Below the pieces are notes generated by a model, which was not told the origin of the DNA, did not search any database, and saw nothing but the letters and a program-made list of their open reading frames with translations. A stretch of 64,000 nucleotides of DNA from Amoebophrya sp. A120 (taxonomy: Eukaryota > Protista > Dinoflagellata). Below are positions 132-51,300 of this stretch, in pieces. The DNA is taken from NCBI GenBank assembly GCA_905178155.1, contig CAJINV010000014.1, positions 2,358,247 through 2,422,246 on the forward strand, given 5' to 3'. Each line of letters opens with the position of its first letter. Position 1 is the stretch's first letter. The position numbers were made by a program, and so were the translations under genes.

Positions 132-3100
132 TTCTCGGACTGGTGTTTATTCTTTTTCACCTTAGCCGCGGCTCCTTCCGGCTCTTCTGCTTTGGGGTTT
201 TTGCACAGCAGCCCCCTCTCCCGGCAGAGTTTCTCCAGTTGGGAGAAATGCTCAAACTTCGCCCACTCCTTGCGCTTCTGAGACATGCGCGAGCACTCCT
301 TGTAGTCGGAGATGGAGATTTCCCTTGAGAAACTCAACAAAAACGTCGCTTTCAAACCCTGTAAAAACATCGGGGAGAATAAACACGATTCCTGCCAGGC
401 GGCGAGAATCCGGCAAATCCGGCCGGCGAAGTACTGCTGAGGGAATCGCTTGTTGTCGTTTGTTAACGAAGAGGTGGAGGTACTAGTGGACTGCGTCTTG
501 AAGTAATCCTGGGCACTGAACATGTTGAACCCACTAGCTGCACCAGATAAATTTGTGTCGATTTCGTTTCGGTTTCCTTCTTTCTTGTTTCTCTTCTTTA
601 TCTTTTCATCATTCCCCGAAGAAGTTGTACTAGGGTTGCACTGCGTGTACAGAATCTTCCCGTACACCCAAAACATCTCCGGTAGATGTTGTTCCAGTTC
701 TTTCCGGTAGCACCAAGCCCTCGGTTGGGATAGGGAGGACGCGTTCTGTAACAAATCTGAGATCAGGTACATCCTGGCGATCGCGGAGTCGATATGGCGT
801 TCTCAACCGTTACACTCTCAACTGTTACATGATTTGTCATGCAAAATTACCTTCAGAGTCGACACCATCAAGCTGCTTCGTATGACAAATTCTCAGAGGG
901 CCGAGCAGGCTGATAATCGGTGCCAAATCTGTCATGCAAGACGCGCAAGATTCCCCCTATCACTTTTACCATTCTTGCATCACAAATTTATGTAACAGCT
1001 GAGAATGTAACAGTAACAGTTGAGAACGCCATAGTCGACCAGAAACCGGTTGTATTCGAACATGGCAGAGTCCTTCACTTCTTCAAATTTCTCGAATTCT
1101 TGCTTATCGCAGAGAAACTCCGCCGTCGCCTGCTTGGCGGAATTCGCGAATCGCTCCATCAGAATCGCCATGGCGCCGTAGATCGACTTCCGGGTCATTT
1201 TGAGTTGGCCGATGAGCTGCTCGAGCTCCTTTTTCCCTTCCTCGTCGAGGGGCTCCTGGCCCGCGACCTTCCGGGTCGACTGCTGATTCGACCACTTTGT
1301 ATCCAACTGCTCTCTGATGTTCATGGTTTTCATCTGGTTCTGCACGGTACTATTACCAGCTTGGTCAAGAAGAGAAGAATCAGGCCCACCACGTAGAACG
1401 CCGGTGACGATGCCGCTCGCAGCCGCCGCAAGCGCCTCTTCCTTGCTGGTGAACACCGATTTTTTTTCCTCCAAAATTTCCTCCTCCGTGCCATTTTCCG
1501 TCCGCCGTCGCTTCCGCCGGTAGGCGCCGGCCTCCTGGGGTATCGCGTAGTAAAACGCCTCGGGGATTTTCGGGGGGATAAACACCGGGCCGTTCCGCAC
1601 CATCTGGAACGGCTCCGTGCGCCAGCGGGTCCTTTCGTCGCCCTGGGTATAGGCGTACACCCGCCACTTGTAGTAAAGGGCTTCCTTCTCAGCATAGTTT
1701 GGGTCTCTCGGGTCCAGAAGAAAGTCGGCATTGACGAGGGAGGTAGTAGTTGTAGTAGCGGCTGAGATAGATGAAGAGGCGGTCTTAGTTTTTTTCGCAG
1801 GTGAATTCTCGTTCATCTTTTTGCGCTTCTTTTTACTCGAAGATTTCTTTGCGGTTATGGGAGAAACATCTTCCCCATCCCCTCCTGCTTCATCTTCGCC
1901 TGAGGACTCTGATGACTTTTCTTCTTTGCCATGATCAACCTCCTTGATGTCCTCGTCGGCCTCCGAGTCTGATAAGTTCTTCTGGTTCTGTTTGTGGTCA
2001 TCCTCATCGTCATCATCATTCTCCTGTCGCTCATGCAGCTTTATCGCAGCATGACTACTACTTTCCGCGAAGTTCAGAATGCCCTCTTTCACGTCCTGCC
2101 GGATCTGCTCTTCAAATGTATACCCGCATTTTGCTACGTACTGCGCCACAATGTCGATGAACCGGTGCTGTTCCTTCGTTTTCGGCACCTCTATCGTGAT
2201 TTTCTCGCGGCTTTCCTGCTCCTTGGTCTTTTGCTTCATCTCCTCGAGCAGGATGTCAAGGTCCTTCTTCTTCTGGTCCTTTTTGCTCATCGTGTTTTTC
2301 TGCTGGTAACGGCTGGCCAGATTCTGCAGCTTGTCGTCGAAATTGAGTGCAGGTTTAGGTTCAGCTGGCGTCGGCTTTTCATTTTTCATCGTTTGTTCAC
2401 CCGAAAAATTATTGTCGCTTTGCTGCACGTGTTGTAACTCCGGAAGATTTTCTTGCTGCAGCGCTTGCATTTGTTGATTGATTTTCTGCTGGAGGATCTG
2501 TTGCTGCATTTGCACCATCTGCATCTGCTGAAAAAAGATATTCCCTGAAAATTAACCATCCCCATCCAATTTGTCATGCAAAACATACATAAAATCATGT
2601 GTTTGTCATGCAAAAAGTGGATGGGGATGGGTAATTTTCAGGGAATAAAAGATCACCCCGTCGTATTGATTCGTGCCTGCACCGGCACCGGCGGGCGGGG
2701 TGGGAAAGCCTGGTAGCGTAGTACCGCTCATTGTCGTGTTTTGGTCGTTTTGTCCCATTATCAGAGACTGATTCATGAAGTTACTCGCAGCGGTGAAGGG
2801 AGCGGCTTTCGGCTGCAGAGAAGGTTGGAACAGTGCATTTTTTACTTTTGGAGGTGGTTCTGCTTGTGCTCCTTCCGACTTCACCGTATGATCTGCTCCT
2901 GCAGTCGCGCGGCCATTCGCCGGCGGGGGTTTCTTGCGCTCGTGATGTTTCTCTTCGTCTATGTCGTCGTAGTCAACAGACTTTTGTGGGTCTGCTCGCC
3001 GACCAGAGTCTGTCCGTCCGTCTTCCTGTTCCTTGGAGCGGTCTCTACTCCTCTTTCCACCTCTTGAATCCGCCCGTCGCCGCTGCCGCTCATTCTCACG

Positions 3101-3724: not shown

Positions 3725-4576
3725 GCTTGCACGTCATGCGCCGCTGACTCACGAATATATGGCGCGTGGTGGAACAAGGTAAGAACTAATGGTGACTGAG
3801 CCCTGACGGGATTTTCGGGCACCTACAAACTCTGGGCAGGAGGGTCGGGATAAGTATATCATGGGTCATTGTTTGCGCTTGGGTTCCTGTGTATGCGTCA
3901 AGCTCAAGTATCGCTACACGCTACCATGTCATATTTTTTTTTTTGGAGCGAACGTCAATGTTATGTCGCCACCTCGAGGGAGGTTTGTCTGTGTGCCTGT
4001 CATGTAGAAAACAAAATAGTACGCCAGGAGAAAAAATACACTTGTAACTACTGCCGCAGACAAAGTGAAACACTATTTGTTGCCTTGAGCTACCTTGATC
4101 TTGATCTTTGTTCGATAAAAATGCAGGCAGAGATCCGGAAAAGAGTGCTCGTCGGAGATCTTCAAAAAGGCTGGTGCAAAAATTTTGATACATCATCCGT
4201 TGGTCTGCCTCTGCGCTTGTGCAGTGTGATCATATGATCAGCACATTGATAATAATACCTATCCGCGGAACAAAATGCTAGTGCAACTGCTGGAGAGCCT
4301 TCGTCGTCAACTTAATCATTGTCGCTCGTAGACAGCGACGCGAAAGCTTTCCATTTTTCTCAAATTCTGAAACTCTCCTGTATTCTCAACAAATTGACCA
4401 TCACTACAGTCGTGAAGATCCACTTTGTCTTCTTCTTCTATTGCTGCTACGACTAAGTTCTTTTTAGATACTAGCAGCGTCTGCGACGGATCAACATTTT
4501 GGTGCGTAGGTATCTTCTTGTTGGTTCTGTCCCTTTCGACGCTGGTGCTACAACCAGCACTATCTCCAGAACCTGT

Positions 4577-28500: not shown

Positions 28501-31500
28501 CGTTTGAGAACGCCATATCGACCTCGAGCACGTTCGGCGAAGTGAAAGTCTCCGTCATATCAAAGAAAAAAAGTTCGTCACGATCACTCATGCGCATTCT
28601 TGCAATACAAAATTGTTTGTCATGCGTAAAAATGCATCACAGCCAAACTTTATTAGGGATTTCCCTAGTGTTTCTGCAACACAAGGAAAGTTTGTGATGC
28701 TGAGAAAATTTGTAATGCAAAACCTGCAAGTTAGTGACTGTGACAAACTTTTTTCTCTCCATACGTCACGGTTTCCTTGTAGCGGTCTTTCGGGAGGTAA
28801 ACGGAGGACTTGTCGCGGAAAAGATTCACCGCGGTAATGGTTTGGACCACATAGGAAATTACCTGAATGAGAAGCGTTTTGGTGCTAGCGATTTGCCTCT
28901 GATACAACAAGGCAAATACATGCAGACGAGAGCGCGAGCGAGACAGCGAAGTGGTCGCTCCAATATGACATATTTTTGTTTTAGAACAAGCATCACTCGT
29001 AACATGTCAGCACTAGTAGTACCTTCTTTGCCGGCATTTTCTGCGCCACGCTCGCCGCAAACGCGGACACGGCTTCCGCGACCGTATCGGCTCCGGAGAC
29101 CACCTTTGTAGTGTGCACTTTGTCGTAGAACCCCAAATCCGTGAGTTGCTGTTGCGACAACGACGGCAGTGCGCACTGCGGCACCTGGTCGATCTTCGCG
29201 TTTGGGGGCCACTTCGTGTTGTCCGACCAGTCTAGCGTCCCGGCCGGGCAGGTAATGGTCGTCGTACGCGTGGTCGCGTTGCTGCTGTTACTGCTGTTGG
29301 TACTACTCGTCAGTTGCCGTCTCCGCTCCCCCGTTAACTCGTCCACGTACCATTGGCTATTTTCTTCCTGTTCGGAGAAGATCAAAAACCGCCTTTCGTA
29401 TTCCTCGCTCCCGGGTAGCGCGGTGGCGAAATCCAAAGGGTCGTTCTGGACGGTGTTCGCCCCGGCACTGTACAGCTCCTCCGTCAGTTCCCCGTTTTGC
29501 CCATACAGATTCATGATGGATCCGCCTTCAGGAAGAATCATGTGACTGTACTGCTCCCGTAAGACGTCATTCGGGTGCTTTTCCTTAATTGCTCCTGCAG
29601 CCGAAGAAGTCCCGTCGAATGGTGCAGAACTATCCTCATTGTCGCCTTCCATCTTTTTTCTGTCCTCGAATTCCTTGACTGCGGACAGGTGATCCGACCC
29701 CCGGATCGCGTCGAGTCTCCTCCATTCCAGCGCCTCCGGGGAAATCTCGTGGTAGTCTGGGATGTCTTCCTGCAGCTTGCGGATCGAGTGCTCGCTGTGG
29801 CCGTGGATCTTCATCAGTTTGATCCAGTCCTCGTCGTTAAAGACGTCGTTTTTCAGCGTCTCCGCCATGGTCGACGCGTCCATTGAGTGCGGCGTGGATT
29901 GTAATCTGTCTCGGGTAACCACCTCGTGCATCCAGGGGAATTTTTCCTTCAATCGCAAAAAGATCATCTCCTCCTCTTCCGACATGTAGTGCGGCTCTAA
30001 TAATCGTCTTCTCCTCTCTTCGGATGTTTCCTCTTCCATCTTTTTCTGCTGTTCTAGGAATCTTTTGTTCGTTTCTTTCTTCGCTTCTCTCCTCTCCTTC
30101 CGGAGGTTTTCAAAATAAGCGATCTTTTCGTTCAACAACTCCGCTTCCTTTTTGTAATCCTCCTTCTCCTTATCTGTCCACTCCTTCTTTCTTGCCTTTT
30201 CCAGCAGCCCACTATCGGTCAAGCTGGCCTTCAGCCGGATCGCCTGGCCGATGGATTCTAGATCCTTCCGGTATTTGAAATTGTTTTCCGATACGCGGCG
30301 CGTCGTCCTGGGCCACATGGAGGTTGCGCCGTAGCCGGAAGAGTAGCTGGGCCCCATCATGCCAGGCATATTGGTCGAGGTTTCGTAGTAATTATTGTTG
30401 TCATTCCAGCTTCCGTGACCGCTGGCCATCCCATCATCGGGCGGGCCGGTCGTGCCGTACATGTTGTCATCGTTCCAAGTTCCGTGGTTGTTGGTCGTCC
30501 CACTTCCGGTTGACATACCAGGCATCGGGGTCTTCCAGTTCGGCGTGTGGACCGGTGGGCTGGTGCTAGCGTGGTCCCAGTTTCCCGTGTTTCCCGTGCT
30601 GGGTGGCGATGTCGTGTGCATCGGATCTGTCGTGCCGTAGGTCGGCTGGTAGTAGCCGGGCCGCGACGTGGTCTGCTGGTAGGGATCGTAGTACGGATCG
30701 TGCTGACCGCCATACGGGTCATAGGGGTCGTGCTGCCCGCCGTACGGGTCATAGGGGTCGTGGTAACCACCATACGGGTCGTGCATGTCCACGTCGTTGT
30801 ACCCCGCGACCGTCATCCCCGCATCTTGCATCATGTCCATGGCCATCAGCATGGCCGGATCCACATACCCGCTTCCCGACCCCGTGGCGGACCCCATCTG
30901 CGTCACCATGGCCGCCATGGCGTTGGTGTCCGGCATTTTCGTTTCCGTCTTGACCGCCACCGTTACCGCGGTGGCGGCGATCGCAATAGTTCCCACGAAT
31001 CTCAACTCGTTCTGCAGGTTCTTCAGCAAGTTGGCCGAGGACACCGTGGCCATTTGCGTTCCGAAGTTGTCGGCCTCCTGTTTGTCCTTCTTCGCAATCT
31101 CGAAATCGACCTGGACGGAGGTCGCGGCGAGTCGCCGTTTCGCCGCGTTTTTGTGGTGGTGGTAGGGCTTTTGCTCCCGGAAGGGGACTTTGCGCTCCTT
31201 GTTTTTCTCTTTCAGCATCTCCAACTCGCGCCTGCTATATCAAATGTAAAAGTGTCTGGGTCTGGAAGAATGCAACTTGTCATGCTAAATCTGAAGCATG
31301 CAAAAATCTGTGTTGCATGATTACCAAAAGTCGTCCAGTTTTGACCAAGTCGGGAGGGAGTTTCTCATGCAGGATAGGCATGAGAGAGATTGCGCAGAAT
31401 CTGTCATGCTAGGTCCTGCATTCCAGGCTTCATGGGTCATGGAAAAGCTGCATGACAAACCGCGCATTCTTCCAGACCCAGACATTTTTACATTTGATAT

Positions 31501-34500
31501 GCTAGATCCGACCACGAAGTTCTTGATCTCCACCTCGTACGGTGCGACGGAATACGTATCGGCCAGGGCGATATGGAATGCAAAGAGGTCTGGGTCTGGA
31601 AGAGTCATGCTGTTTTTGCATGACACAGAAGGTCTGGCATGGATGCTCTAGCATCACAGGTTTCGAGAAGCTTCCGCATCCGCAATGCCGAATCCGCATG
31701 ACAAATCACCCACTTTGGTGACAGAAAGTGGGCAGCTTTTGCTACCTATGCATGAGAGATTTTTCTGCGTTCTGAAATGCGCATCGCAAGTTTGTATTCT
31801 TCCAGACCCAGACATATTTGCAATCCATAGGCGAACCGAAAGGAGTCCACCACTTCTGGATCATCCAACAACTGCGCTCCGGTGGTTCCGGCCGGCAAGT
31901 CCATCGCCAGCGTCACATTCGCCTTCACCACTGGCGTGGTCTGCACCGTTTGCCCGCCGAAACTCACCTTCCCGCCGGTACAGTGTATGGGACTCTCAAA
32001 CGTTACACTCTCAACTGTTACATGAAATTTGTATTGTAATGCAAGAATGGCAAAAGTGAAAGGGAAAACATTGCGCCTTTTGCATTACAGGTGTGGAGCA
32101 GATTATAATGCTATCTAGCGCATCGAGAAGTTGTCATGCGGAGAAGGCTTGATCGTGTTAAGAGTGGTAGTGTTTTTGCATGACAAATCATGTAACAGTT
32201 GAGAATGTAACATTTGAGAACGCCATACAGTGGGGCGGCGGGTTTTCGGAGTAGCACATGGGGTCCACGGACTCCGCGTTTATGCATTGCAAAAGCATCG
32301 CTCTCGTACTAATTGCAGATATGCATGACAAATCGCCTTTCTTAGCATTAGCTACAACAGCATTACAAATTCCATTTGTAATGCTAAGCTAATCATTATT
32401 TGCAATGCAATTTATACTAGTACGATGCTTTTGCACAGGATAGCGTTTTCCAACAGCAAATGCATCATGTCGTGGGACTGTTCCATGATCGCGGTGTCCA
32501 CGTACAGTTTCGCTTTTTCCAACGCTTTGGATTGGTACGCCGCGGCGGTGGACTCGGACACGCCCAGGGTTTCCACCTGCGTCTGTCGTATTTAAAAACA
32601 TCCCCACCCCATGATTGTAATGCAAATCTGCATGCTGAGAGTGTTTTTCATGCGGAGCCCAATCAGAAGCGTTTTCTATTCGCGTTTTGAAATTTGTCAC
32701 GCTCCAATCAGCATGGTATGCTGGATCTTTGATGCTGCTGAACTACCTCAAACACCACCACACTACGAGTCCAAATTTGTCATGCAAAACATCCAAAACT
32801 TGTGGATTTGTCTAGCCGATTCCCCATCTTGACTATGGGGTGGGGACGTTTTTACATAGGATAGCGTCCCGACCTCCCGGTTCTTTTGCAGAGGCGAGTC
32901 GATCTCGATCACCTCCCACAGGTACTTCAAGTGCTCCGGCGCTTTCAGCATGGTCCCGTTGAAGGAGCCATCCGCGGACTGGTACGCGTTTTGGGGGATG
33001 GAGGTTGGAATGCCGGTCAGATACTGGCAATACGCGTACTTTGCCGGCTGCGACTTCACCTGCCCACACGTCGGCGGGAGCTCGCCCTCGGCGAGTTCCG
33101 GCACCTTCACCACCCGGTCGTTGCCGAACGGGCAGTTGATGTTCACCTGCACGGTCACTTCCGGGTTGTCCAGCACCGTTTCCACGTACTGTTGCGGAAT
33201 CCCCCGGTCCCCCATGCAATCCCAATCCACCCGGCCGCAGTTACAGTCACACACCCCGTCCGACCACTGCTCCGGCGAGCACGTCCAGCTGGTCACCTGG
33301 TCGTCGCCGAGCTCCCCCGTGTTCGGATCAATAATCGGGAACAGCCACTGGTAGGCGCGCTTGATGGTCCGCACCTCCATCGGCGTCGTCTTCGTCTGGT
33401 CGGAACTGGAGGCCCGGATCAGAATCCGCATGTTGCTGTTTTTCGGCACTTTTTCCGTGTCGGAGAAGCCCCCGGCGTTGACCACCAGTAGCCCATCGTG
33501 TAACCCGTCGCAGAAAATACTGGAGCGACCGGTGGTGGTGTAATCGGTCCCGTCGATCGAAACCCCCGGCTTGCCGGTGGAGCTGTAGTCGCACCAGGGC
33601 CGCTCCTTCATGATCTCCGCCTTCGCGGGGTCGGTGCCAAACTGCACACGGAGCGGGGTTTCGTCGAAGTTTTCCTCGAAATAAGGCTTGCCCGTGGGAC
33701 TGTAGTCGAGGTTGAGAATGTCGTTGATCAGCGGCGACAGAGTTTTCAGTTTAGCCTTGAAATCGTCCTTCCACTTCGTCAGCGCCGCCTTCTCCGCGAG
33801 CAGCGTCGCGTTTACGGAGGTCCGCTCGATTTCGAAAACAACGCGGAGCGTGTGGATGCCGTCCGGAGTCAATTGGCGCGGGAGGGCGAATGAGGACTCC
33901 TCGCTTTCGCTAGAAGTAGTGGTAGATGAAGAAAGTGCGGTTTGCTTCGCAGCTACAACCTCCGGGTTCATCTTATCTACTTTCACGTCTTTCTCCAGCG
34001 AGCTTCGTTTAGTTTTCGCATGCTCAGCATTGAACTCCGCCTCCTCGCCAGCCTTCAATTTTCCGCCCGGGCTTCCTTCGACCTCCGCGCCCAATTTTCG
34101 GATATGCGCCGAAATCCGCCGCATGTCTTTCCCAATCTCGTCGATCTCGGCTTCCAAACTTCTGCGGTATGCGACCTCGTCCGTGGCCGCGAAGTGCAGC
34201 TTCCGCGCGAGTTGCTTCCGCTTCTGTCGTGCGGATTCCAACTGCCGTTGCCGGTAGTAGGGCATGCCCATGCCCATCATCATAGGGTCATACATCCCCC
34301 CACCTCCCATCATTGGGTCATACATGCCGCTGGGTATGCGAAGGAAAAGCTTTGCGGGTTTCACCCTGAACAATTAATTTGCGGCTTTTGCACATGCAGC
34401 AGAAACAGAAACAGTGAGCAGATTACAGATAGAAGTAAAAGTATACATGGGCTCACTCACATTTGGATGTCGAACTTCTTGTAAAAAAAGTTCAAGGGAG

Positions 34501-37500
34501 CGTTTCTGCCATTACAAATTGACAGTGATATCGCAACTGCTTTTCCCCAGCATACCCGCACCAGGGCCCATCCCGTAGGGGTCTTCCTCCATCATCCACG
34601 GGTCTGGCTCATCGTTAAATCCGCCATGCATCATCGCGTAGGGATCTTCGCCCGCGGCCACGGAAATCATCTGCCCTGTCATTGGGTCATACACCATCCC
34701 CGCGCCAAATTCCATGGTATCCGCGAAGGCCTCGAACCGGATGCTCCCAACGTCAATCCCCGATACGCTGGACTCGGTGCAAGCGTGGACAAACGCCTGC
34801 TTCGAATGCAACTGGAACTGCGCGTTGCTCGCGATTGCGCCGGGGGGCTGGTGCACGTTCTGCGCTTTAATTTTCACCTGCAGCTCGGAGAAGTAGTTGT
34901 AACGGGTGGTGGAGCTCGTTTGGAGGTGCCGCTGTGGGGCGGCGACCGTGATAGGAGATGAGGGTTTAGGAGTTTGCTCTTTGTTCTTCTCTACTGCGGC
35001 TCTTTCTGTAGATTTTTCCTCCTCCAGCCGGCGCGCCCCGTCTCCGTCGAAGAGATTGTTCATCTCGAGAATCTCGAAGCAGTCGCTTGGACACTGGATC
35101 TGCGGGAACATCGGATCGTACGGGACGGTCAGATAATTTTGGGCCCAGAACACCTCCCGCATCGCCGTGTTGAAGTTGGGGTCCGTTTGTTCCCGGAACT
35201 TCTTCTGGATTCGGTACTTGAACCCGTTCGGGCCCATGTAGGGGTCCGCGGGGGTGCCGGAGCAGGCCATCGTGGGGGGCCACTGCCCGTTGCAGCTACC
35301 CGGATCCAGAAACTCGCGCTTCAGCAAAAACTCGATTTCCGCCCACCGCCGGATGGAGAGGTGCACCGCGATTTCCGTCTCCCGATTCATATTGTCCGGG
35401 GCCGGCCAGCCCGGAAACGGAATCCCCGAAGGGAAATTGCCGATCCGGACCGAGACAATGTCGTCGTGCTGGGAATCGGTGCTCGAGGTCTGCAGCCCAA
35501 GCCCAAAGGTGAAGGCGGTCCTGAAGGCATCGCTCAACGCCCCCCAACTCGCCAGGCCGACGTTTTGGCCCGAGCTGGTCCGTCCGCCGTTGTTCAAGTC
35601 CCAGTTCTGGCTGTGCGACATCATCATTCCATTGCTCCACGGGGCGGTTTTCAGCTTCACCAGAAACGTATAGACGCGCGACGTCATCGCGGCCGGGATC
35701 AGGCAGGGGTTGTTGAACGGTGTCACGTAGAACGACGTGAAGCAGTTCGTTTCACCAGGCACGGAATTCAGGTTCGAGTCCTGAAACAGCAAATTCCTTG
35801 CTGGGCTCGTCATCTGCAGGTCGTTGCCCCCGGCGCCCGCGGTTTGCGTGTCCGTTTCTAGGTAATTGTAGATGGACGTGTCCGGGGAGAGGTTCGCCAC
35901 GTACTGCCGCGCCAGCGTCCCCTTCACCCCGGCCGGGGAGAGCCCCTTCGGGAACCCGCCCACGTCCAGCCGCTGCCGCTTCGCGGTTTTCATGGCACTC
36001 GCGCTGTTGGCAGAAGTCGTTGCGGTCGTTGTGTTCGTGGTCTGGAGTTGCCGTTTTTGCTGCTCGGTCACCTTCTCCCCGTTCAACTCTCGAAGTTGCA
36101 ATCTTCTGAGCTTCATCTCCCGCGGCGAAAGCTTGTTCGCGTCGAGCTCCGCGGAGCTTTGTTCGGCGCTCTGACTGCTCAGGTTTTCCTCCGCAGAGGC
36201 GAGAATATCTTCCAAGGATCGGGTGTCACGACGAACAACGGTGGACTGCTCGTGTTGCTGAATCGCATCGTTTACAGATGCAGCCTCTCGTCCGCCAAGA
36301 CCACCGCCCGCACTCGACGTTCCGAGTTTCCGCAGAGCCCGCCGAGAGGTCGAGCTGGAGGTGGTGGCCGCCCGTGCAGTTTCCTGCGTCACCGTCGATC
36401 CCGAGCGGATTACCACCTCGGAACTGTCGATCTGTAACCGGAACGGCCCGGTTTCCGAGAAGGTTTGCTTCGGATCGTCCAACTGCATCACCATGTCTTG
36501 GTAGTCCCCCGTCATGCTACTGACCATCTTGGCGCTCGCGAAGTGCTTGTTCCGAAACTGGTTGCCGGTGGCCTTCAGGTGCAGCAGCTGCGTCTTCGTC
36601 TTTGAGTCCAGCGTCTCGGACGCGACCGCTGTCGCCAGCTCGTGGATGCCCTGCCCGAGGTTCAGTTCGATCGTGTAATTCTGCTCCGTGATGTTCTTCA
36701 CCGGAAATCCCGCTTTCGGCCCGATCTCCGCCTTCACAATGCGGTAATAGTTGATGGTGTCCGCCACCGTCACGTTGCCCGTCGTGCCGTAGGTGCGAAT
36801 CGTGTTCGCGTCCTGCTGGAGCACTTCCGACGCGGGGATGTCCCCCTCGGGGCGGTACTGACAGACGTACTCGTTCTTCTCGTTCTTGTTCGTCGCCCCG
36901 CTGTACAGCGTGTCGTGCGGGCAGGCCTTGCACTCGGACCCACCAACCGCTTCAAATTCCGACTTCTCCCCGATGTACCCGTACAACGACACCTCGCCCG
37001 GCATGGTGAGCGCGTAGCAGGGCTCCGACACCGCCACCTCCGCGACCCGCGGGTTGTAGACCGGAAACGTGCACCTCCCCAGCGGCGAGCAGATCTCCGA
37101 ACTCGCGCAGTACAGCACCGGCAGCGTCCCCGCCAAGCAGTCCGGGTCCGTCATACCGCAATTGCAGTCGCAAAATTCGCCGTCCATGTACCGATTCGGG
37201 GGGCAGACCCACAGCTCCGGGTTCGAGACCGCCGGGTAGTCCGTTGGCCGGTCGGTCTTGAAATTCAGCCGCGTGGAGCCGATGGACGTGCTATGGCGTT
37301 CTCAAATTGTACATTCTCAGCTGTTACATAAATCCGCAATGCAAGAATCGCAAAAGTGAAAGGGGGAAGGTTGCGCCTTCTGCATTACAGGTTTGGATGG
37401 AGCAGATTGCAATGCTATCTAGCGCGCCGAGAACTTGTCATGCTCATGCGCAGAGGGCTTGGAATGGTGAAAGGTGATGGCATTTTTGCATGACAAATTC

Positions 37501-40500
37501 ATGTCACATTTGAGAATGTAACGTTTGAGAACCCCCTACGTGCCGCGGGTGACTTTTAGCGTTTTGGAATCCGAGGCCGCGGTCACCAGCATGCGCTCCA
37601 CCCCCATGTCACCCGTCACGGTGATGTAGAAGGGAAAAGGCACCGTCCAGATGTAGACGGGGGACTTTAAGGTCAAGGTTTTGTCCGTCTTATCAACTGC
37701 AAAAGTATTGTATCGTACTCGTATAAATGCATTACAAATTTTCTTAGCATGAGAAATAAAATTTGTAATGCGGATTTGACTTGACAAGAAAATTTGTAAT
37801 GCATGACTGCAGTACGAATACGATACTTTTGCACAGGATACGTCTTCGTGGGTTTGTTCGCCTTCACGTAGGCCGTGTTGAAGAACGCGTCCCGCTTCTA
37901 TCCTATGTAAAAACGTACCCACCCCAGAGTTGTCATGCAAATCTGCATGCTGAAAATGTTTCTCATGCGGAGCCCGATGAGAAGCATTGCCCAGTCGTGT
38001 TCTGGAATTTGTCATGCTCCAATTAGAATGATATACTAGATCTGTGATACTGCTGAGCTAGCTCAAACGGCACTACACTACGAGTCCAAATTTGTCATGC
38101 AAAACAGCCACAACTTGTGGATTTGTCTAGCCGAGTCCCCATCTTGACTATGGGGTGGGGACGTTTTTACATAGGATAGCTTCCCGTCGCAAATCATCGT
38201 GTCGGCGGAGTACTGGAAGTTGTTCACGTAGCTCGCGAACAGCATCCAGTCCACCAGGTCGATCGGGACCTGGGACCGCGCCATGTTGGCCGTGTTGTTG
38301 GACAGAGACAGACTGTCGTTGTACCCCGTGTTGATTCCGTACACGGTTCGCAGACGCCGCTCCACGTTTACGCGGTACTTGCCCCAGGCGGTGGACTGCA
38401 TGAACGCCTTCGCGTTCGCGGTCGTCCAGTTCGACGTGATGATCATCATGTTGTCCATGCTGGTGCGGCGTCTCCAGGTCCCGGACTCGGTGTTCGTGTA
38501 GTGCGACACCGCTATGGAGCTCTCAAACGTTACATTCTCAACTGTTACATGATTTGTCATGCAAAATCACAATTAGAATTGATACGATCAAGCTGCTCCG
38601 CATGACAAATTCTCGAAGAGCCAAACAGGCTGAGAATCTGTGCCAAATCTGTCATGCTAGACGCGCAATGTCACCCCTTTGACTTTTGCCGTTCTTGCAT
38701 CACAAATTCATGTAACAATTGAGAATGTAACGTTTGAGAACGCCATAACCGCCCAGGAAAAGTTCGAACTCGCCAACGTGTCCATCGCTTTTCCGGAAGT
38801 GGTTTTCTGGTACTCGTATCCAAGAAAAAAACGTTGTTAGTGTAAATTTGTGATGCTAAAACAACCGCACCGACATTGCCATTTGTGATGCGCAGCATGC
38901 AACTTGATTGCGTCTGTCATGCTGTGCCTGCATTGTGGGGTCCATCCAAGGGCGTTTTCGCGTACTATCTGCGCATGACAGGTTTTTGCTGTCATGCGAG
39001 AGATATTTGTAATGCTAATCCTCCAAGAATAAAGTTACACCTACAATCTTTTTTTCTTGGATAACTCGCGCGAATGTTTCAGTAAACTCGGCCGCAGCGC
39101 CTCGTACTGGTACTTCGCGACCACGCCTGCTTGGAACTGGCAGGACTTCACGTTGCGCAGTTGCTTGCGGTCGAAACGCACAAAGGCGGCGACATCGTGG
39201 TCAAAGAAGGTTTTCACCGAGGGAAGCAGACCGAGATCACTGTACGCGTAGCGCAAAGCTATGGCGTTCTCAACTGTTACATTCTCAACTGTTACATGGA
39301 TTTGTGATGCAAGAATGACAAAAGAGCAAGGCGGAAGATTGCGCCTTTTGCATTAAATTTACAAGTTTGGTGCAGATTATAATGCTATCTAGTGCGTCAA
39401 GAAGTTGTCATGCGAAGCAGCTTGATCCTGTAGATGTGTATTGTAGTTTTGCATTACAAATCCATGTAACAGTTGAGAATGTAACGTTTGAGAACCTCAT
39501 AAAAGACTCGTCGTAGTTGTGGGTGTCGGACGTGACCGCCATTTCCCGGATGAACCTTGTCATGTTTGGATACGGAGAGTCCATGTCTGATCCCCCCGCC
39601 GGGTAGCTGTTGAAGATGATCGGGACCTTCTCCTGCGCCCCGAACGCCACCGGGATTTCGTCCTGCGCGGACGTCCCGCCAAAGTGCATTGTCATGAGGA
39701 AAAATCCCCTCTCCCCACATTGCAACGGCATGCCCTTGAAAATTTGCGATGCTGATCTGTGACCACAAATCGTGCCTGTCTTGCATAAGGGCAACCCCAC
39801 GGAGTCCGCCGCATTGCGGAGGCGGTTAGTGATGCTGCTGGGCCTACGGCGTAGGCGTTCTCATGCTAGGCGCCTACGTCAAAACCTCTCTGGTGCTGAG
39901 GCTTGGTATATCCCTGCAGTCCTCTACTGCAAGACAAGTATGATTTGTGTACGCAAATCCAGCATCAGAAACTTCGTTTCAATATGGGGAGGGGGAGTTT
40001 TTGCTCGTGATATGCATCCCCGTGTTGTCGCGCCACTCGATCTTCGCGAGCGAGGTCTGGGAGTCCGCTTCGTAGAACTCGATGTTTTGCACCCAGTGGA
40101 GGTGATGCAACACAAAAGCATATCGCACTTGCACTAGCTAAAATCGCATGACAAAGTACTTGTATTTTTCGAAAAGAAAAACAGTAACAGAGTTTTCAAT
40201 GCTGATTCAGGTAGAAGACAAAATCTCTCATGCAAGCCTGCAGAAGTAATTCATGCGAATGAAGTACGATACTTTTACAGTGGATAGAAATTGGTCACGG
40301 GCAGATCCCACTGAGGCGGTTCCGCCGGCGTCATCCAGTCGCCCAGGTACTTCTCGTTGTATTCGCAATCCGAGATATGGAAGCGTCAGGATCGAGATCG
40401 TCAAAGTTGAAATGATTTGTCATGCATAAAATGCATGACACGAAATGCGTGTGTTGCAGAGCAGGCAAGTGAGGCCGATTGTAAGCCTGTTTGGGGTTAC

Positions 40501-42410
40501 AGCTCGAGCTGCAGAAGTAACATGAGAGAATCAATCTTCTGTACCTAAACAGCATTACAAACTGGATTTAGGCACAACCAAAATTTGTCATGCGCCACTT
40601 GGAAACTGGGGTCCAACTGGCATCCATTTTCTGCATGGCAAACTATTTCAACTTTGACGATTTCAAACCTGACGGCTCCATACGAGAAGTCCACCGCGTA
40701 TTTGTCCGTCCTGCCGATCCCCCGGCCCCCGTCGTAGCTGGCGAGCGAGGGGCAGATTTTCTCCACGTTGATCTGAATCTCCCCCATCGCTTCGAGGGAG
40801 GTTTTGTCGCTGAAAAAATCACCGAGCGACCCAAAGAAGAGGATGGACACGTATTCACAGTAAATTTCCCGTACACGTACAAATGCTGGCGCCGCATGAC
40901 AGAACTAGGGCTGAAGCCTATTCAGCATGACAAGTGGTATGCTCCAAGTTGGCGAAATTTGTGATGCATTTTGTACATGTACGGGAAATTTGTATTGCAT
41001 AACACGATCACAAACAGCACGACGGAGAAGCAACAACCCGCAATCGTCTGCGGGGAATCCTCCGGCGTCACCTCGGCGCCGCGGTCCAACCGCTTCCCGA
41101 ACCGATCGCCGAGCTTCAGCCAGAAGGGGACCTTGAGCTCCATCAGATCCGTTTTCTGCGTCTCGCGGTCAAAGGGAAAGTATAGGGAGGGAGGAAGTCC
41201 TGTCAACACAGAAGGTTGCTTGATGGCACTTCTTGTTTTAGCTAGGTGAGCAGAAGAACTTGAAGAGAACGCATGCGCGACGAGGACGTCGAGGGCTCTA
41301 ATGCATAGAAGAAGCCGTATTTCTCGTGTGCTGGATTGTGTTTGTGACGCAAGGCTCCTGCTCCTAATATGCAGTTCTACTTACAGCGTGTAGTCCATCT
41401 CCATGCTGCCGTTATGACCATACTTAGTCTCCTGTACTAGCAACATCAAATCCATATCAATGAGAATTGCAAACAAAAACGCAGAGTGATGAAGCAGCTT
41501 TTCTCCCCCATAACTCATATTTCGGCACGAGTGCGCCAATCTGGAGCCAACACGCCATCATGTTGTCGTATATTCCCAGAAACACATTGGGCACGCCTTC
41601 TTGCCCCTTCGGAGTAGACGAAGTCGCGTCATCCTCCGCCATCGCGTGGGTTCCCTCTCTGTTCACCAGAACGGTGATTTTACTCCCGTGAGTTGTCAAT
41701 ATTTTCCTGTCCTCGTTGGCGCTCGAAAACATGTTGTTGTTCAGGTTGTTTGTTCTGTAGTCCACCGCGTCAGCCGACGTTGTAGAAGCTCCATCCACTT
41801 CTCCGCTCATCACCTGGTCAACGAACAAAGGTCCGCGTGCTGCAGCACCTGACCTCGCACGAACATTGTTTGCACCACCGGCTTGGCTCGGAGACGAGGA
41901 CGGGATGGATACAGTCAGAGGACTACCCGAAAGATCCCCTTCCTGAGCCGTCCGTGTAGTCTTCATGGATGACTCATATTGGTGCCCAGTGTGCAGTACC
42001 TTAGTCGTTCTTGAAGATGCTGAACCACCACGGGCCAATCGTCCCATTTGCTCCTCCTCCTCGGAAGAGCTCGGAACCACGGTGCTCAATTTGTAGTTTT
42101 TCGCAGACGAGTATGCAAGAAAAAAACTGTGTAAGTGTAAATCTGTGATGCAGAAAATGCAAAACAGTTACACTTGTCATGCTCGACATGCATGATCGGC
42201 TCCCTTCCTAGGTGTTTTCCCTTCCTATCTGCGCATAGCAAGTTTTTCCTGTCATGGCAGACAAACTTGTGATGCAGTTTTCCCAAAACAAAAGACTTAC
42301 ACTAACACAGTTTTTTTCTTGGATAACGAGGGCGGTGTCTCGGATAGGCTGCCCTCGTCCGTCGGCGGGGTCACCGCCCGCCGGAGTGGCGAAGATATGT
42401 TGCTGTCCAT
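25536..42410 (-). CDS. Giant (~3,600 aa, estimated) two-transmembrane protein with huge luminal/extracellular region; 22 TIR introners plus GT-AG introns
   Basis: ATG at 42410; frame continuous after excising each element plus 5 nt and GT-AG introns 26675-26866 and 28863-29022; TM1 IAGCCFSVVLFVIVSILFFG, TM2 LAGLLALIGALAGYTAIFAAILGLW; two W.C...DG.CDCNCG..D.DC modules. Junctions at ~41200-41520 unresolved. Confidence 0.78.
26193..26477. mobile_element. TIR introner family E (285 bp), TSD GACAT
   Basis: TATCCTGAGTAAAAACGTACCCAC...GGGGACGTTTTTACAAATGATA; removal gives EIPNMSLAGLL. Confidence 0.9.
27169..27432. mobile_element. TIR introner family B (264 bp), TSD GACGA/TACGA
   Basis: TATGGATTGCAAAAGTGTCTGGGTCTGGAAG...CTTCCAGACCCAGACATTTTTGCAATTCATA; removal gives AEPLVRGKAKC. 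Confidence 0.9.
27484..27719. mobile_element. TIR introner family A (236 bp, opposite orientation to 793), TSD TCGGT
   Basis: Family A TIRs; removal gives YMSGSTDYVDGQ. Confidence 0.92.
28283..28517. mobile_element. TIR introner family A (235 bp), TSD TCGAC
   Basis: Family A TIRs; removal gives PNVLEVEVGLF. Confidence 0.92.
28558..28763. mobile_element. TIR introner family C (206 bp), TSD CGTCA
   Basis: TATCAAAGAAAAAAAGTTCGTCAC...GTGACAAACTTTTTTCTCTCCATA; removal gives YKETVTETFTS. Confidence 0.88.
30680..30785 (-). repeat. Coding tandem repeat (30-bp unit) encoding HDPYDPYGGQ-type repeats
   Basis: HDPYGGYHDPYDPYGGQHDPYDPYGGQHDPYYDPY in ORF 28993-31224. Confidence 0.75.
31238..31499. mobile_element. 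TIR introner family B (262 bp), TSD TGCTA
   Basis: TATCAAATGTAAAAGTGTCTGGGTCTGGAAG TIR; removal gives FVVGSSRRELEM. Confidence 0.92.
31572..31829. mobile_element. TIR introner family B (258 bp), TSD GGCGA
   Basis: Family B TIRs; removal gives DSFRFALADTY. Confidence 0.92.
31986..32227. mobile_element. TIR introner family A (242 bp), TSD CAGTG
   Basis: Family A TIRs; removal gives ENPPPHCTGGK. Confidence 0.92.
32281..32442. mobile_element. TIR introner family D (162 bp), TSD GCGTT
   Basis: TATGCATTGCAAAAGCATCG...CGATGCTTTTGCACAGGATA; removal gives LLLENAESVDP. Confidence 0.9.
32584..32863. mobile_element. TIR introner family E (280 bp; one end TGT), TSD GCGTC
   Basis: Highly similar to 37899-38178; removal gives NREVGTQVETLG. 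Confidence 0.9.
34335..34554. mobile_element. Degenerate TIR introner (220 bp), TSD eroded
   Basis: TATGCGAAGGAAAAGC...GCTTTTCCCCAGCATA; flanks CTGGG/CCCGC; element plus 5 nt = 225 nt joins two same-frame ORFs; nearby GT-AG pairs do not preserve frame. Confidence 0.55.
37292..37538. mobile_element. TIR introner family A (247 bp; one end CTA), TSD CGTGC
   Basis: Family A TIRs; removal gives KVTRGTSIGST. Confidence 0.9.
37691..37840. mobile_element. TIR introner family D (150 bp), TSD CGTCT
   Basis: Very similar to 53551-53701; removal gives NKPTKTDKTL. Confidence 0.92.
37899..38178. mobile_element. TIR introner family E (280 bp), TSD GCTTC
   Basis: TATCCTATGTAAAAACGT(A/C)CCCACCCC TIR; removal gives ICDGKRDAFFN. 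Confidence 0.93.
38513..38747. mobile_element. TIR introner family A (235 bp), TSD ACCGC
   Basis: Family A TIRs; removal gives SNFSWAVSHYT. Confidence 0.92.
38817..39063. mobile_element. TIR introner family C (247 bp), TSD ACTCG
   Basis: TATCCAAGAAAAAAA...TTTTTTTCTTGGATA; removal gives KHSREYQKTT. Confidence 0.9.
39260..39501. mobile_element. TIR introner family A (242 bp), TSD AAAGC/AAAGA
   Basis: Family A TIRs; removal gives YDE(S/A)LRYAYS. Confidence 0.9.
39690..40012. mobile_element. TIR introner family F (323 bp; one end TGT), TSD TGCAT
   Basis: TGTCATGAGGAAAAATCCCCTCTCCCCACATT...AATATGGGGAGGGGGAGTTTTTGCTCGTGATA; removal gives DNTGMHFGGT. Confidence 0.88.
40104..40286. mobile_element. 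Degenerate TIR introner family D (183 bp), TSD GAGGT/GAAAT
   Basis: Right end CGATACTTTTACAGTGGATA; left end eroded; removal plus 5 nt gives VTN(F/L)HWVQN. Confidence 0.7.
40376..40682. mobile_element. TIR introner family G (307 bp), TSD CGAGA
   Basis: TATGGAAGCGTCAGG..ATCGTCAAAGTTGAAAT TIR; removal gives AVDFSDCEYN. Confidence 0.9.
40852..41001. mobile_element. TIR introner family H (150 bp), TSD ACACG
   Basis: TATTCACAGTAAATTTCCCGTACACGTACAAA TIR; removal reunites TM helix VLFVIVSILFFG. Confidence 0.9.
42112..42325. mobile_element. TIR introner family C (214 bp), TSD ACGAG
   Basis: TATGCAAGAAAAAAACTGTGT...ACACAGTTTTTTTCTTGGATA; removal gives TPPSSAKNYKL. Confidence 0.9.
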
Positions 42411-48380: not shown

Positions 48381-51300
48381 TTATCCGTCAATTCCTAGCA
48401 CCCATTCAAACGGTTCTGGGGGTTCCGGCTCCGGGTCTTCGATTTTCTTACTTGGCTCCACAAACTCTTCGGCTTCGTTGGGATTCCGATCCTCCAGCAG
48501 CAAAAAGCCAGACTGTCGGTCGTTCTGCAAAATCGGCACGTACCGGACCGGCTTCATCTCCGTTGCGGGCTTCGCTTCCTTTCCATCCTTTAATTCTGTG
48601 CTTGTTTCCACCTTCGCAGCGCCTTCCTCTTTCTCCTTGTCTTTACTTTCGGAATCTCCCAACGGGACTGTAGTTGTTGCTGGGACCGCTGGCGCCGCGG
48701 GTACCTCGACGGGAATCAGGCCGGTTAGTGTGAATTTGATATACTTCTCCTGAATCGGGATGACCCGCGATGGGTTGTGTAACGGCATGCAGCTCGGCAG
48801 CGCCTTTTTCTTCTTCTCCCCCTCCTTTTCCTTGCTCTCGCCGTCCTTCGCTTGTTTGCCGCTGGTGTCTTTGCCATCGGTAGCTCCTGCTTTTGCCTTT
48901 TTACTTCCAGCACCACCCTCTTCATCCACCTCCATTTTGTCGGCGTCCTCGAACTTCTTTGCGAACGCCGCCACTTTTTCGTCCTGTCCCTTCGACGGGA
49001 TTTTCTTCTCCCCCGCGGCACCGGCAGCGGTGGGTGTTTTACCGTCCTTCTTCTCCTCCCCCTCTTTCGGCAACAGACTCTCCGGGCTGTCCTTGGCGGT
49101 TGGCGTCTTGCTGCTGGTGCGCTCCATGCCGGCCTTCCCGCCCGTTTTTTTCGCGGCCGTGGACAGAACCGCCTTGGTTTTCGTCACTTCCTCGGCCTTC
49201 TTGGACTCTTCCGGCATCGGGTAGTCGAAGAGATTGTTCTTAATTTTCGATCCGTACCCTGTCACGTCGGAGTGGAACGAAAAGTGTTTCGGCATCTTGA
49301 GGTCTTTGTTCAACCCGATCACGGCCGTGGGCACGAAGGAAAGGGACAAGCCGTGGATTATCCTGTGCAAAAGTATCGCACTCGTATAAATGCAGGTCTT
49401 GCATGACAGATCTGCTTTTTTAGCTTGTTCTGCATGACAAATTTAATTTTTCTTTCCGGAAAAATTTGTCATGCGTTTTGTACTAGTACCATACTTTTGC
49501 AGTGCATATGGATCAGCGGGTACCAATACCACATCTGCGTGAACAGCAAAAACCCGACCGCTGCGCCCTGTCTCACTGCGCCAGACTTGGAGAAAAAGGA
49601 AGCGCACACGTTGCGCCCGCCTGTGGTGGATTTTCTTAGCTGATAAAACCTAATTGAAGCATGCGCAGTGCCGTTGGCTATAAAACGCAGCCCCGTCAGG
49701 AGGTATTATAGATGAAACCAATGCAAATACTAGGGATCAGTTGTTCTGTAGTTCCTGAACTACAACACAACCTGGCCCTTGACAAAGAAAGCCACAACGC
49801 AGGATATAGATTTTGTTAATATTATGCAAGATGAAAACAAGTGTAACAAGCTTCTTTGGCCAGATGCAAGATGAAAACAATAAAGTTGTACCCGCGTCCA
49901 TGATTCCCTGAGCCAGCAGTGCTCCAAACCTGGTGGCCACGTCCTCGTGCTTTTCCCCGATGCACTTCATCACTTCACTTCGAAACTTCTCCGCGTTGTC
50001 GGTGACGGACTGCATGTACAGCAGCGACATGGCGACGTAGGCTCCCTTATGGATTGCAAAAATGTCTGGGTCTGGAACAAAGCAACTTGTCATGCTAGAT
50101 CTGAATCATGTGAAAATCTGTGTTGCATGATTACCAAAAGTAGCTGTCCACTTTTGACCTAATCGAGAGGCAGTTTCTCGCGCAGGATAGGCATGATAGA
50201 ACTAACACAGAATCTGTCATGCTATGTCCTACATGCCAGACCTCATGGGTCATGCAAAATATGCATGACAAACCTGGCAATCTTCCAGACCCAGATATTT
50301 TTACAGTTGATATCCCTGCCGCACAAAGTCCGTGTTGTCCGCCAACAGGGGGCGTAAGATGTCCTCGCAGTCCGCGTTCGCGCTGCCCGCGTTCGAGTAT
50401 TGTGAGGAAAAGTCTCCCCCCCCCCATATCGAAAAGGAAACTTGTGATGCTGATCTGTGACCACAAATCAGCTCTGTCTTGCGTACAAGGTAAACGGCAC
50501 CCATGTGGCGCATTGTACAGCGAGTCTGTCATGCGTTTTCGCCTATGTGGGACTTGTTTCTCATGTTTAGCTCCTAGCCGGACGCGTAGCCAAATGAGCG
50601 TAGAATATGCCGCCAAGCTCTTGCTACAATACTAATTTCATTTGTGTACACAAATCCAGCAACTTTTGAATATGGGGCGGGGGCTTTTTCACTTTGATAT
50701 CGAGATCCCGAGAGTGAGGGCCGCGGCGTAGCGGACGTGTGGGTTGTAGCTAGTGGCGAGCAGTTTCACCATCTGCGGCACGCGTGTGGGCACGTTGCAC
50801 ATCACAAACGCCAAGCCCAGCACCGCCGCCCGCCGCACGTCGTCATTCACGTCGGACACTGCCAGGTGCAGCAGCTTCTGAATCGACCGGCTCGAGGCCG
50901 TGCCGCAGTAGGCCATGGCGATCACGAAGCACCCGCCGTACCGCAGGATCGGGTCCTTCTCGAGGAGCAGCTGTTCCGCGAGCGAGTCGGCGGACTCCTC
51001 CTTCTGAAACATGATCAGGGCCAAACTGACCGCGCACCCGCGGATGATCTTCTCGTGCTGGGTGTCCTGCGCGTACTGGAGAAGTTCCTTGATTTCCTTC
51101 TCCGAGGCGGAACCGCACATAACCTGTTTTATTTTTAGCACAAGCAACTAGTACCAGGGTAGAAAAAATAAAAAATGATCGTGCTGCACGACATATCTTC
51201 AAACGTTTATACGTTTTTCGCTTTCTACTCGTGATACTAGATGGAGTAAGGCTGCCTTCTGGTTCGCCATCGTATGAATCATACAGCCTCAACAAACTAC

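What the first reader, a model, noticed from the sequence alone, without database searches (positions are those of the whole stretch)
793..50312. Introners are tolerated in either orientation, so the excision signal is symmetric
All host genes are on the minus strand, yet family A lies in one orientation at 793, 28283 and 38513 and in the opposite at 27484, 31986, 37292 and 39260. Family B likewise has 31238 and 50048 opposite to 27169 and 31572. Spliceosomal signals (donor, branch point, acceptor) are polar, so this implies recognition of the TIR hairpin or of strand-symmetric motifs (inference).
Basis: partly seen in the sequence, partly recalled or inferred. Interest (0 to 1): 0.78.

Follow-up and report, generated by a model that had tools for sequence, protein, structure and literature searches.

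The report
Reversible introners carry polar splice signals
Small transposon-derived introns of an Amoebophrya-type marine parasite sit in genes facing either way and are missing from likely-RNA contigs in both orientations, but the cut is likely read in the direction of the transcript, from three bases that the mirror-image ends supply either way, likely by a loosened form of the ordinary splicing machine.

Summary
Observation confirmed: all 11 orientations are as stated. Nine of the 11 copies lie in one 3,600-codon minus-strand gene. One 12.1-kb likely-RNA contig lacks both orientations of families A and B, each by exactly element+5 nt (14 of 14 element joints shown); a DNA-type run keeps them. 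In 159 copies (window plus 39 loci) family A is 19:21; B (24:8) and C (10:0 strict, 13:3 loose) are skewed. The inference is only half right. The element is symmetric, the cut is not: mismatched target duplications fit one register (1 nt before, 4 nt after the element), and 15 of 16 terminal mutations spare sense-strand U+2, A+3 and A-7 while hitting their pairing partners. There is no G-U over A-C excess in the stem (101:97). So the TAT...ATA ends likely supply polar donor-like and branch-like bases in either orientation. The elements match the published Amoebophrya A120 introners (Farhat 2021); either-orientation introners are known in Polarella and Aureococcus, there with near-canonical sites. 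This scan found the register and the conserved bases before, on other DNA of this genome; the orientation tally and pairing tests are added here.

The parts
793..1033 (.). Family A element, orientation 1, in Surp-domain gene
2539..2647 (.). 109-nt element in the same gene
25536..42410 (-). Host gene, about 3,590-3,620 codons, 22 elements and 3 GT-AG introns; no Pfam match in the 4 pieces scanned
   Evidence: open frame; 12.1-kb contig
26193..26477 (.). Family C element
   Evidence: removal inferred from contig coordinates, 992 nt = 290+269+241+192
26675..26866 (-). Canonical GT-AG intron, donor GTATAG
   Evidence: sequence; length fits contig arithmetic
27169..27432 (.). Family B element, orientation 1; TSD mismatch limits register to k<=4
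   Evidence: joint 27164/27434, 269 nt
27484..27719 (.). Family A element, orientation 2
   Evidence: joint skips 241 nt; hairpin z -9.7
28283..28517 (.). Family A element, orientation 1
   Evidence: joint skips 240 nt; hairpin z -9.0
28558..28763 (.). Family E element
   Evidence: joint skips 211 nt
28863..29022 (-). Canonical GT-AG intron, donor GTACTA
   Evidence: joint skips 160 nt, CT..AC on +
31238..31499 (.). Family B element, orientation 2
   Evidence: joint skips 267 nt
31572..31829 (.). Family B element, orientation 1
   Evidence: joint skips 263 nt
31986..32227 (.). Family A element, orientation 2
   Evidence: joint skips 247 nt
32281..32442 (.). Family D element, orientation 1
   Evidence: joint skips 167 nt
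32584..32863 (.). Family C element; sense 3' end ACA instead of ATA, still removed
   Evidence: joint skips 285 nt
34335..34554 (.). Old element with 3 of 5 TSD mismatches; limits register to k>=4
   Evidence: joint 34329/34555, 225 nt
37292..37538 (.). Family A element, orientation 2; sense 5' end TAG instead of TAT, still removed
   Evidence: joint skips 252 nt
37691..37840 (.). Family D element, orientation 2
   Evidence: joint skips 155 nt
37899..38178 (.). Family C element
   Evidence: joint skips 285 nt
38513..38747 (.). Family A element, orientation 1
   Evidence: contig pieces end 38507 and resume 39064 with 64 letters between, 492 = 240+252 removed (table 8)
38817..39063 (.). Family E element
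   Evidence: same arithmetic
39260..39501 (.). Family A element, orientation 2; TSD mismatch limits register to k>=1
   Evidence: joint 39254/39502, 247 nt
39690..40012 (.). Element with sense 3' end ACA
   Evidence: contig piece ends 39684
40104..40286 (.). Degenerate element, weak hairpin (z -0.72), sense 3' end ATC
   Evidence: removal inferred from bin depth 151.4 against 151 expected if removed, 313 if kept (my arithmetic)
40376..40682 (.). Family F element
   Evidence: loose end behind 40375 continues in the next exon
40852..41001 (.). Family D element, orientation 1
42112..42325 (.). Family E element
49359..49508 (.). Family D element, orientation 1, in RPN2 gene
50048..50312 (.). Family B element, orientation 2, in RPN2 gene
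50398..50699 (.). Element related to 39690, in RPN2 gene
52792..53213 (.). 422-nt element in RPN2 gene
53551..53701 (.). Family D element, orientation 2, in RPN2 gene

Best explanation
These are MITE-type introners that lie in both orientations within genes and are missing from likely-RNA contigs by exactly element plus 5 nt, likely because their TAT...ATA ends supply, whichever way they face, three polar bases that a relaxed U2-type spliceosome would read. Steps: (1) a DNA transposase inserts the element in either orientation with a 5-nt duplication (inferred from TIR and TSD); (2) the transcript is cut after the 4th base of the upstream duplication and after the 4th base of the downstream one, so the intron reads N-U-A-U-(G/C)...A-U-A-N-N-N-N (shown as the only register common to three informative joints; one rule for all is assumed); (3) U+2 and A+3 act as what is left of a GUAU(G) donor, and the A at -7 as branch point, with the 3' cut set by distance and not by AG (inferred from conservation; no lariat seen); (4) the long TIR stem, which forms on both strands, may help to mark and juxtapose the ends but its terminal pairs are not required (inferred). 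Orientation tolerance is thus a by-product of the TIR, not proof of a symmetric cutting reaction.
For:: 14 of 14 element joints shown skip element+5 nt in all four runs (2 samples, 1 study), both orientations of A, B and D, in one contig that also skips a GT-AG intron; record coordinates add up (131, 266 and 201 letters between listed pieces, as predicted). DNA-type run X5 runs from exons into element ends at single-copy depth (about 42); registers 0-4, 1-5 and 4-5 overlap only at 4; the gene reads open for 3,587-3,622 codons; 159 of 159 keep 5' T and A and the 3' A at -7, while the partners of these three bases vary (155, 156, 155 of 159); 15 of 16 terminal deviations in the wider set fit (one-sided p about 0.0003, my arithmetic); both T and A occur among fixed and free positions, so base-specific strand bias does not explain it. 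G-U 101 versus A-C 97 in TIR positions 4-20 (p 0.83).: +2..+5 is UAUG or UAUC in 150 of 159 copies; the gene's canonical donors are GTATAG and GTACTA. Farhat Table S4: all nine predominant A120 non-canonical site pairs have T as second base. Wilkinson 2017: U+2 pairs with U6 A51, G+1 with G-1, so G+1 and the AG are linked, and Slu7 is dispensable below nine nt from branch to 3' site. Fixed short branch-to-end distances exist (Irimia and Roy 2008). U2, U4, U5, U6 and most spliceosome proteins are present in A120, U1 not found.
Against: No direct evidence of a lariat or of spliceosome dependence. One copy breaks the rule: L026:1103-1355 has G at -7 inside the conserved end of a likely homocysteine methyltransferase gene (weak Pfam hit E 0.066; no RNA laid). 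The A at -7 has no branch-site context: U two bases before it in only 42 of 159, no enrichment over the mirror position. Three bases hold too little information to define an intron, so structure or a protein must add specificity. Sense-strand folding is marginally more stable than antisense (-92.2 versus -90.6, p 0.05, 91 of 157) and TIR positions 21-30 show G-U 58 versus A-C 35 (p 0.022, one of five overlapping tests), weak hints for an RNA stem. The register rests on three joints from three different families, each alone compatible with other registers. The runs are RNA by the tool's guess, contigs show no strand and no rare variants. A polar endonuclease would also give polar conservation.
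Confidence: 0.6

Rival explanations
1. A non-spliceosomal system (endonuclease plus ligase, or a second splicing machine as proposed for euglenid nonconventional introns) recognises the TIR hairpin and makes a staggered cut 1 nt before and 4 nt after its base; this is the reader's main inference.
For: Both orientations fold into long stems (z -9.0 and -9.7); no GT-AG (10 of 159 in any register); U1 not found; euglenid introns have end-pairing and give circles (review); the 1+4 stagger would suit a structure-measuring enzyme; weak sense-strand folding hints.
Against: Each of the three terminal pairs has one fixed and one free partner; no G-U excess in the first 20 pairs; copy 40104 has a stem no better than shuffles (z -0.72) yet is likely removed; the fixed bases match the spliceosomal U+2 and A+3.
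Confidence: 0.25
2. A protein bound to a strand-symmetric internal motif (GCAT-G/T/C-ACAA), on the DNA or the nascent RNA, marks the element and directs the cut.
For: The motif is at 9.8 per kb in elements against 0.37 per kb outside, in 152 of 159 copies, 193 forward and 178 reverse.
Against: 7 of 159 lack the strict motif; five family E copies in coding junctions have none on the sense strand; its direction does not track the orientation skews (family C all forward, family B mostly reverse in the commoner orientation). A transposase-binding role explains it as well.
Confidence: 0.1
3. The elements are cut out of DNA (IES-like), or the spliced contigs are empty-site alleles.
For: TA-bounded ends and exact removal recall ciliate IESs (recalled); the library type of X1-X4 is a guess.
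Against: The same contig skips a GT-AG intron; DNA-type run X5 holds the elements at full depth; removal includes one 5-nt duplication; junctions mix upstream and downstream duplication bases.
Confidence: 0.03
4. Each orientation carries its own independent canonical donor, branch point and AG acceptor.
For: Family B has a YTRAY in its last 60 nt in 16 of 24 copies of the commoner orientation against 3 of 8 of the other.
Against: AG at the 3' site in 12 of 159, GT/GC plus AG in 3 of 159 at the working register; family A has YTRAY in 0 of 19 and 0 of 21 and 39-40% pyrimidines in the last 30 nt.
Confidence: 0.02

Closest known systems
Introner elements / non-canonical introns of Amoebophrya sp. 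A120 (Farhat et al. 2021, PMC7789003; seen: abstract, sections 10, 11, 12, 16, passages, supplement passages and Table S4 rows; figures not visible)
   Same: TAT start followed by seven variable bases and an A run, inverted repeats, 3-5-nt direct repeats, about 240 nt, no GT-AG, repeated families, co-oriented host genes, MITE-like anatomy.
   Different: [quoted passage not shown] Added here: orientation tally, 1+4 register, polar conservation, pairing test.
Either-orientation introners of Polarella glacialis (several of 15 classes) and Aureococcus anophagefferens (Roy et al., bioRxiv 10.1101/2020.10.14.339549; seen: passages; Huff 2016 not held, known only through this preprint)
   Same: TSD-making transposons that create introns in either orientation, often with a bias to one; splice sites may fall inside the TSD.
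   Different: Those need GT/GC/GA and AG from element or TSD, which restricts target sites; here the TSD is free and neither G+1 nor AG is needed.
Non-canonical introns of Fritillaria borealis (review PMC11282704 section 6; bioRxiv 10.1101/2025.08.15.670264 passages)
   Same: TIR introners with non-GT-AG ends, removed by a changed U2 spliceosome.
   Different: Preferred AG-AC/AG-AT ends there; here only U+2, A+3, A-7 are kept, and spliceosome use is untested.
Euglenid nonconventional introns (review PMC11282704 section 6)
   Same: End-pairing by TIRs, TSD-like repeats, no pyrimidine tract, short unpaired overhangs beside the stem.
   Different: CAG/CTG pairing at +4..+6 and -8..-6 with Y|R borders and circular products; here UAU at +2..+4, no Y|R rule, and the terminal pairs need not form.

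Membership tests
Amoebophrya A120 introner elements | Inverted repeat at both ends starting TAT, seven variable bases, then an A run | tested here: met
   logos; pairing by position
Amoebophrya A120 introner elements | Direct repeat of 3-5 nt at the borders | tested here: met
   5 nt, exact in 126 of 159 (33 with mismatches listed); the scan looked for 5 nt after one search showed it
Amoebophrya A120 introner elements | Removed from RNA without GT-AG | tested here: met
   runs are RNA by the tool's guess
Amoebophrya A120 introner elements | Repeated families | tested here: met
   9 families of 3-40 copies and 15 singletons among 159
Amoebophrya A120 introner elements | Host organism is strain A120 | not tested
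   inferred from the match to the published description; no genome held
Aureococcus/Polarella-type either-orientation introners | Introns made in both orientations | tested here: met
Aureococcus/Polarella-type either-orientation introners | GT/GC/GA donor and AG acceptor from element or TSD | tested here: not met
   GT/GC plus AG in 3 of 159 at register 4, 10 of 159 in any register; AG in 12 of 159
Canonical U2 spliceosomal intron | G+1 and terminal AG | tested here: not met
   GT 42 of 159, AG 12 of 159
Canonical U2 spliceosomal intron | Invariant U+2 | tested here: met
   159 of 159 at register 4
Canonical U2 spliceosomal intron | Branch adenosine forming a lariat | not testable with these tools
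   A-7 kept in 159 of 159, one exception outside that set; no raw reads of this strain
Canonical U2 spliceosomal intron | Dependence on U2/U5/U6 snRNPs | not testable with these tools
   needs experiment
Euglenid-type nonconventional intron | Stable end-to-end stem | tested here: inconclusive
   forms in most copies (partly circular, since copies were found by TIR) but weak in 40104
Euglenid-type nonconventional intron | CAG/CTG pairing and pyrimidine|purine borders | tested here: not met
   last exon base Y in 67 of 159, first intron base R in 93 of 159; ends are TAT/ATA
Euglenid-type nonconventional intron | Released as full-length circles, no lariat | not testable with these tools
   needs raw RNA reads
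Ciliate-type IES (DNA excision) | Absent from the working DNA copy | tested here: not met
   DNA-type run X5 holds exon-element junctions at depth about 42
MITE | Short, TIR, TSD, many copies | tested here: met
   summed DNA contig depth 10^4-10^5 over elements against about 43 over exons (not a copy number)
MITE | Cognate autonomous transposase | not tested
   none sought; Farhat found none in A120

The most novel reading that the evidence does not exclude
[quoted passage not shown] Because TAT...ATA is its own mirror image, any copy, in any exon position and either orientation, is a ready-made scarless intron, which would explain tens of thousands of harmless insertions.
Probability: 0.45. 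Interest if true: 0.85.

Novelty: new variant of a known kind. Interest (0 to 1): 0.52.

Why it matters
How Amoebophrya removes its non-canonical introns (over 60% of its introns) is an open question since 2021. The orientation data remove one apparent argument against the spliceosome and give base-level predictions: cut 1 nt before and 4 nt after the element, lariat at A-7, U+2/A+3/A-7 essential and their pairing partners dispensable, equal register in both orientations. If true, the two most conserved intron signals of eukaryotes (G+1 and AG) can be dropped together, and a transposon can become harmless everywhere just by the letters of its ends. The elements themselves, and either-orientation introners in other algae, are already known.

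Tried and rejected
No whole genome was held, so no genome-wide tally. Splicing efficiency by orientation could not be compared, since contigs drop rare variants. The first lay was swamped by repeat joints of the DNA run; 5 of 20 joints were not shown. The records behind the loci could not be searched further, so the family C skew rests on 10-16 copies. 37 of 196 elements were dropped before the strict counts (29 junction not clearly coding, 7 locus strand unclear, 1 edge); they were inspected and missed ends sought with profiles, which gave the five further deviations, one of them against my reading. Family C as a one-orientation family: rejected as absolute, three reversed relatives exist (L026:5266, L014:2674, a partial copy in L017). 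The internal motif as a branch point: rejected, it is absent from the sense strand of some copies in coding junctions and lies in the 5' half in others. A U two bases before A-7 as branch context: no enrichment. TSD mismatch positions in the loci (10, 6, 6, 7, 13 for positions 1-5) do not locate the cut without RNA. L003:1373, an end without TAT, lies inside an apparent GT-AG intron and was not counted. No Pfam family for the 4 scanned pieces of the big host gene. Literature: searches and term look-ups in Farhat 2021, Gozashti 2022 and 2025 and the 2024 review showed no passage on orientation of Amoebophrya introners; figures, two supplement files of Gozashti 2025, Roy 2023 (Curr Biol), Henriet 2019 and Huff 2016 were not seen and may bear on this.


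Full report
Observation. The 11 coordinates mark short elements that begin TAT, end ATA, have terminal inverted repeats (TIRs) and are flanked by a 5-nt direct repeat. The window holds 29 complete elements (27 from the scan; 34335-34554 and 40104-40286 added by hand) and a partial one at 1-131. The hosts are three minus-strand genes: a Surp-domain gene (793, 2539), a gene from 42410 to 25536 with 22 elements, and proteasome subunit RPN2 (49359-53701). Nine of the 11 named copies are in the middle gene. Removing each element plus 5 nt and three GT-AG introns gives one open frame of 3,587-3,622 codons, depending on one donor not pinned down.

What it is. The anatomy matches the introner elements described for Amoebophrya sp. 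A120: inverted repeats starting TAT, seven variable bases, an A run, direct repeats of 3-5 nt, about 240 nt, non-canonical borders, U1 snRNA not found (Farhat 2021, PMC7789003; abstract, sections 10-12 and 16, supplement passages). The organism is inferred from this match; no genome was held.

Both orientations are removed. Four runs that the tool guesses to be RNA (2 samples, 1 study) were laid on 27100-40400. Three hold one contig of about 12.1 kb across the gene. Of 20 joints 15 are shown: one GT-AG intron and 14 elements, and all 14 skip exactly element plus 5 nt in all four runs. They include family A in both orientations (28283; 27484, 31986, 37292, 39260), family B in both (31238; 27169, 31572) and family D in both (32281; 37691). 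Copy 38513 follows from the record coordinates. Many joints are flagged 'between: not known', but the letters between listed pieces equal the predicted exons (131, 266, 201). A DNA-type run keeps the elements: its contigs run from exons into element ends at depth about 42. Contigs show neither strand nor rare unspliced forms, so efficiency by orientation is untested.

Orientation in a larger sample. A family A end pattern fetched 39 metagenome loci. With the window they gave 196 elements; 159 were kept (clear host strand and coding junction; 37 dropped). Orientation relative to the host: A 19:21, D 20:14, E 5:5, F 5:3, B 24:8 (p 0.01 as printed), C 10:0. Looser matching adds three reversed and three forward relatives to C (13:3). 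So tolerance of both orientations is general, with skews in two of nine families, unexplained. Skews of this kind are reported for Polarella introners too.

The cut is not symmetric. Where the two duplication copies differ, the contig shows which copy each base came from. Counting the bases of the upstream copy kept in the mRNA, 27169 allows 0-4, 39260 allows 1-5 and 34335 allows 4-5. If one rule holds, it is 4: the intron starts 1 nt before the TIR and ends 4 nt after it. The TIR's TAT then sits at +2..+4, and +2..+5 is UAUG or UAUC in 150 of 159 copies, like a GUAU(G) donor without its G (yeast consensus recalled); the gene's own canonical donors are GTATAG and GTACTA. All nine predominant A120 non-canonical site pairs in Farhat's Table S4 have T second. 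I reached this register before the look-up (note); earlier unreviewed notes of this scan report the same on other DNA of the genome.

Conservation is polar. The scan for elements was blind to host strand and allowed one change in the six terminal bases. On the sense strand the first two bases (T, A) and the A seven bases before the 3' cut are kept in 159 of 159; the other three vary in 4, 3 and 4 copies. Each terminal pair thus has one fixed and one free partner, which base pairing alone would not give. Four of these 11 changes are in the window (one in a hand-added copy), seven in the loci. Dropped and missed copies add five more: four fit, one does not (L026:1103-1355, G at -7, in a likely methyltransferase gene, no RNA). 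In all 15 of 16 fit (one-sided p about 0.0003, my arithmetic).

Hairpin and canonical signals. Both orientations fold strongly (z -9.0 and -9.7), as a TIR must. If pairing in the RNA were selected, G-U should outnumber A-C on the sense strand; in TIR positions 4-20 the counts are 101 and 97. Positions 21-30 give 58 and 35 (p 0.022) and sense folding is marginally more stable (p 0.05); these are weak hints the other way. Copy 40104 folds no better than shuffles, yet bin depth fits its removal. Canonical signals are absent: AG at the 3' site in 12 of 159, GT/GC with AG in 10 of 159 in any register, no YTRAY in the last 60 nt of family A in either orientation, no pyrimidine tract. A shared internal motif occurs at 9.8 per kb against 0.37 outside, about equally on both strands, and is missing from the sense strand of some copies in coding junctions; a transposase site is the simpler reading.

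Mechanism. Shown: both orientations, exact removal, the common register, polar conservation. Inferred: a relaxed U2-type spliceosome reads U+2/A+3, uses A-7 as branch point and sets the 3' cut by distance. In the yeast structure U+2 pairs with U6, G+1 with G-1 and A-2 with the branch A, and Slu7 is dispensable below nine nt (Wilkinson 2017, abstract and passages), so joint loss of G+1 and AG with a short ruler is coherent; fixed short branch distances are known (Irimia and Roy 2008, passages), and Fritillaria splices TIR introners with a changed U2 spliceosome. Against: no branch context around A-7, too little information in three bases, one exception, no lariat data. I put this at 0.6, a hairpin-reading non-spliceosomal system at 0.25, motif-guided marking at 0.1.

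Comparison and verdict. The system is published; either-orientation introners are known from Polarella and Aureococcus but use GT/GC/GA and AG (passages). I found no passage on orientation of Amoebophrya introners in the searches and papers listed under Tried and rejected; figures and some supplements were not visible. New variant of a known kind; interest 0.52, because it makes an open splicing question testable at single bases, while the register and conserved bases were already noted elsewhere in this scan.

Noticed in passing
window 34335-34554: Old element whose interior matches no other copy and whose TSD has 3 of 5 mismatches; at the working register it begins GT, and an AG lies one base too far, yet the contig shows the 225-nt non-canonical cut and not the 226-nt GT-AG one.
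   Followed up: yes
window 26193, 32584, 37899 and loci: Family C is 10:0 (strict) or 13:3 (loose) in one orientation and carries its internal motif in one direction only; family B is 24:8. Cause unknown.
   Followed up: partly
all elements: Internal motif GCAT-(G/T/C)-ACAA shared by unrelated families, 9.8 per kb against 0.37 outside; likely a transposase site.
   Followed up: partly
L026:1103-1355: Family B copy with G instead of A at -7 interrupts the conserved GGCCR-like end of a likely homocysteine S-methyltransferase; a test case for the branch-point reading.
   Followed up: partly
L003:1350-1540: Remnant of a family D element without its TAT end inside what looks like a GT-AG intron; possibly an introner turned canonical.
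   Followed up: no
window 2-3733 (-): Host of copies 793 and 2539 has a Surp module (Pfam PF01805, E 1.4e-6), so it may itself be a splicing factor.
   Followed up: no
window 63251-63556: TAT...ATA inverted-repeat element without a matching 5-nt duplication; host and status unknown.
   Followed up: no
window 55505-55984, 56172-57236: 31-nt tandem array with a partly palindromic unit, followed by near-identical 122-137-nt duplications and 12-nt repeats.
   Followed up: no
window 12699-17351, 18660-20474, 43659-45452 (-): Long open frames without any element: 1550 aa and 604 aa with no Pfam match, and a protein kinase.
   Followed up: no
Farhat 2021 Table S4 and section 11: Strain A25 ends start TTA and its predominant non-canonical sites all start TT, which would also put U at +2 and A at +3.
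   Followed up: no
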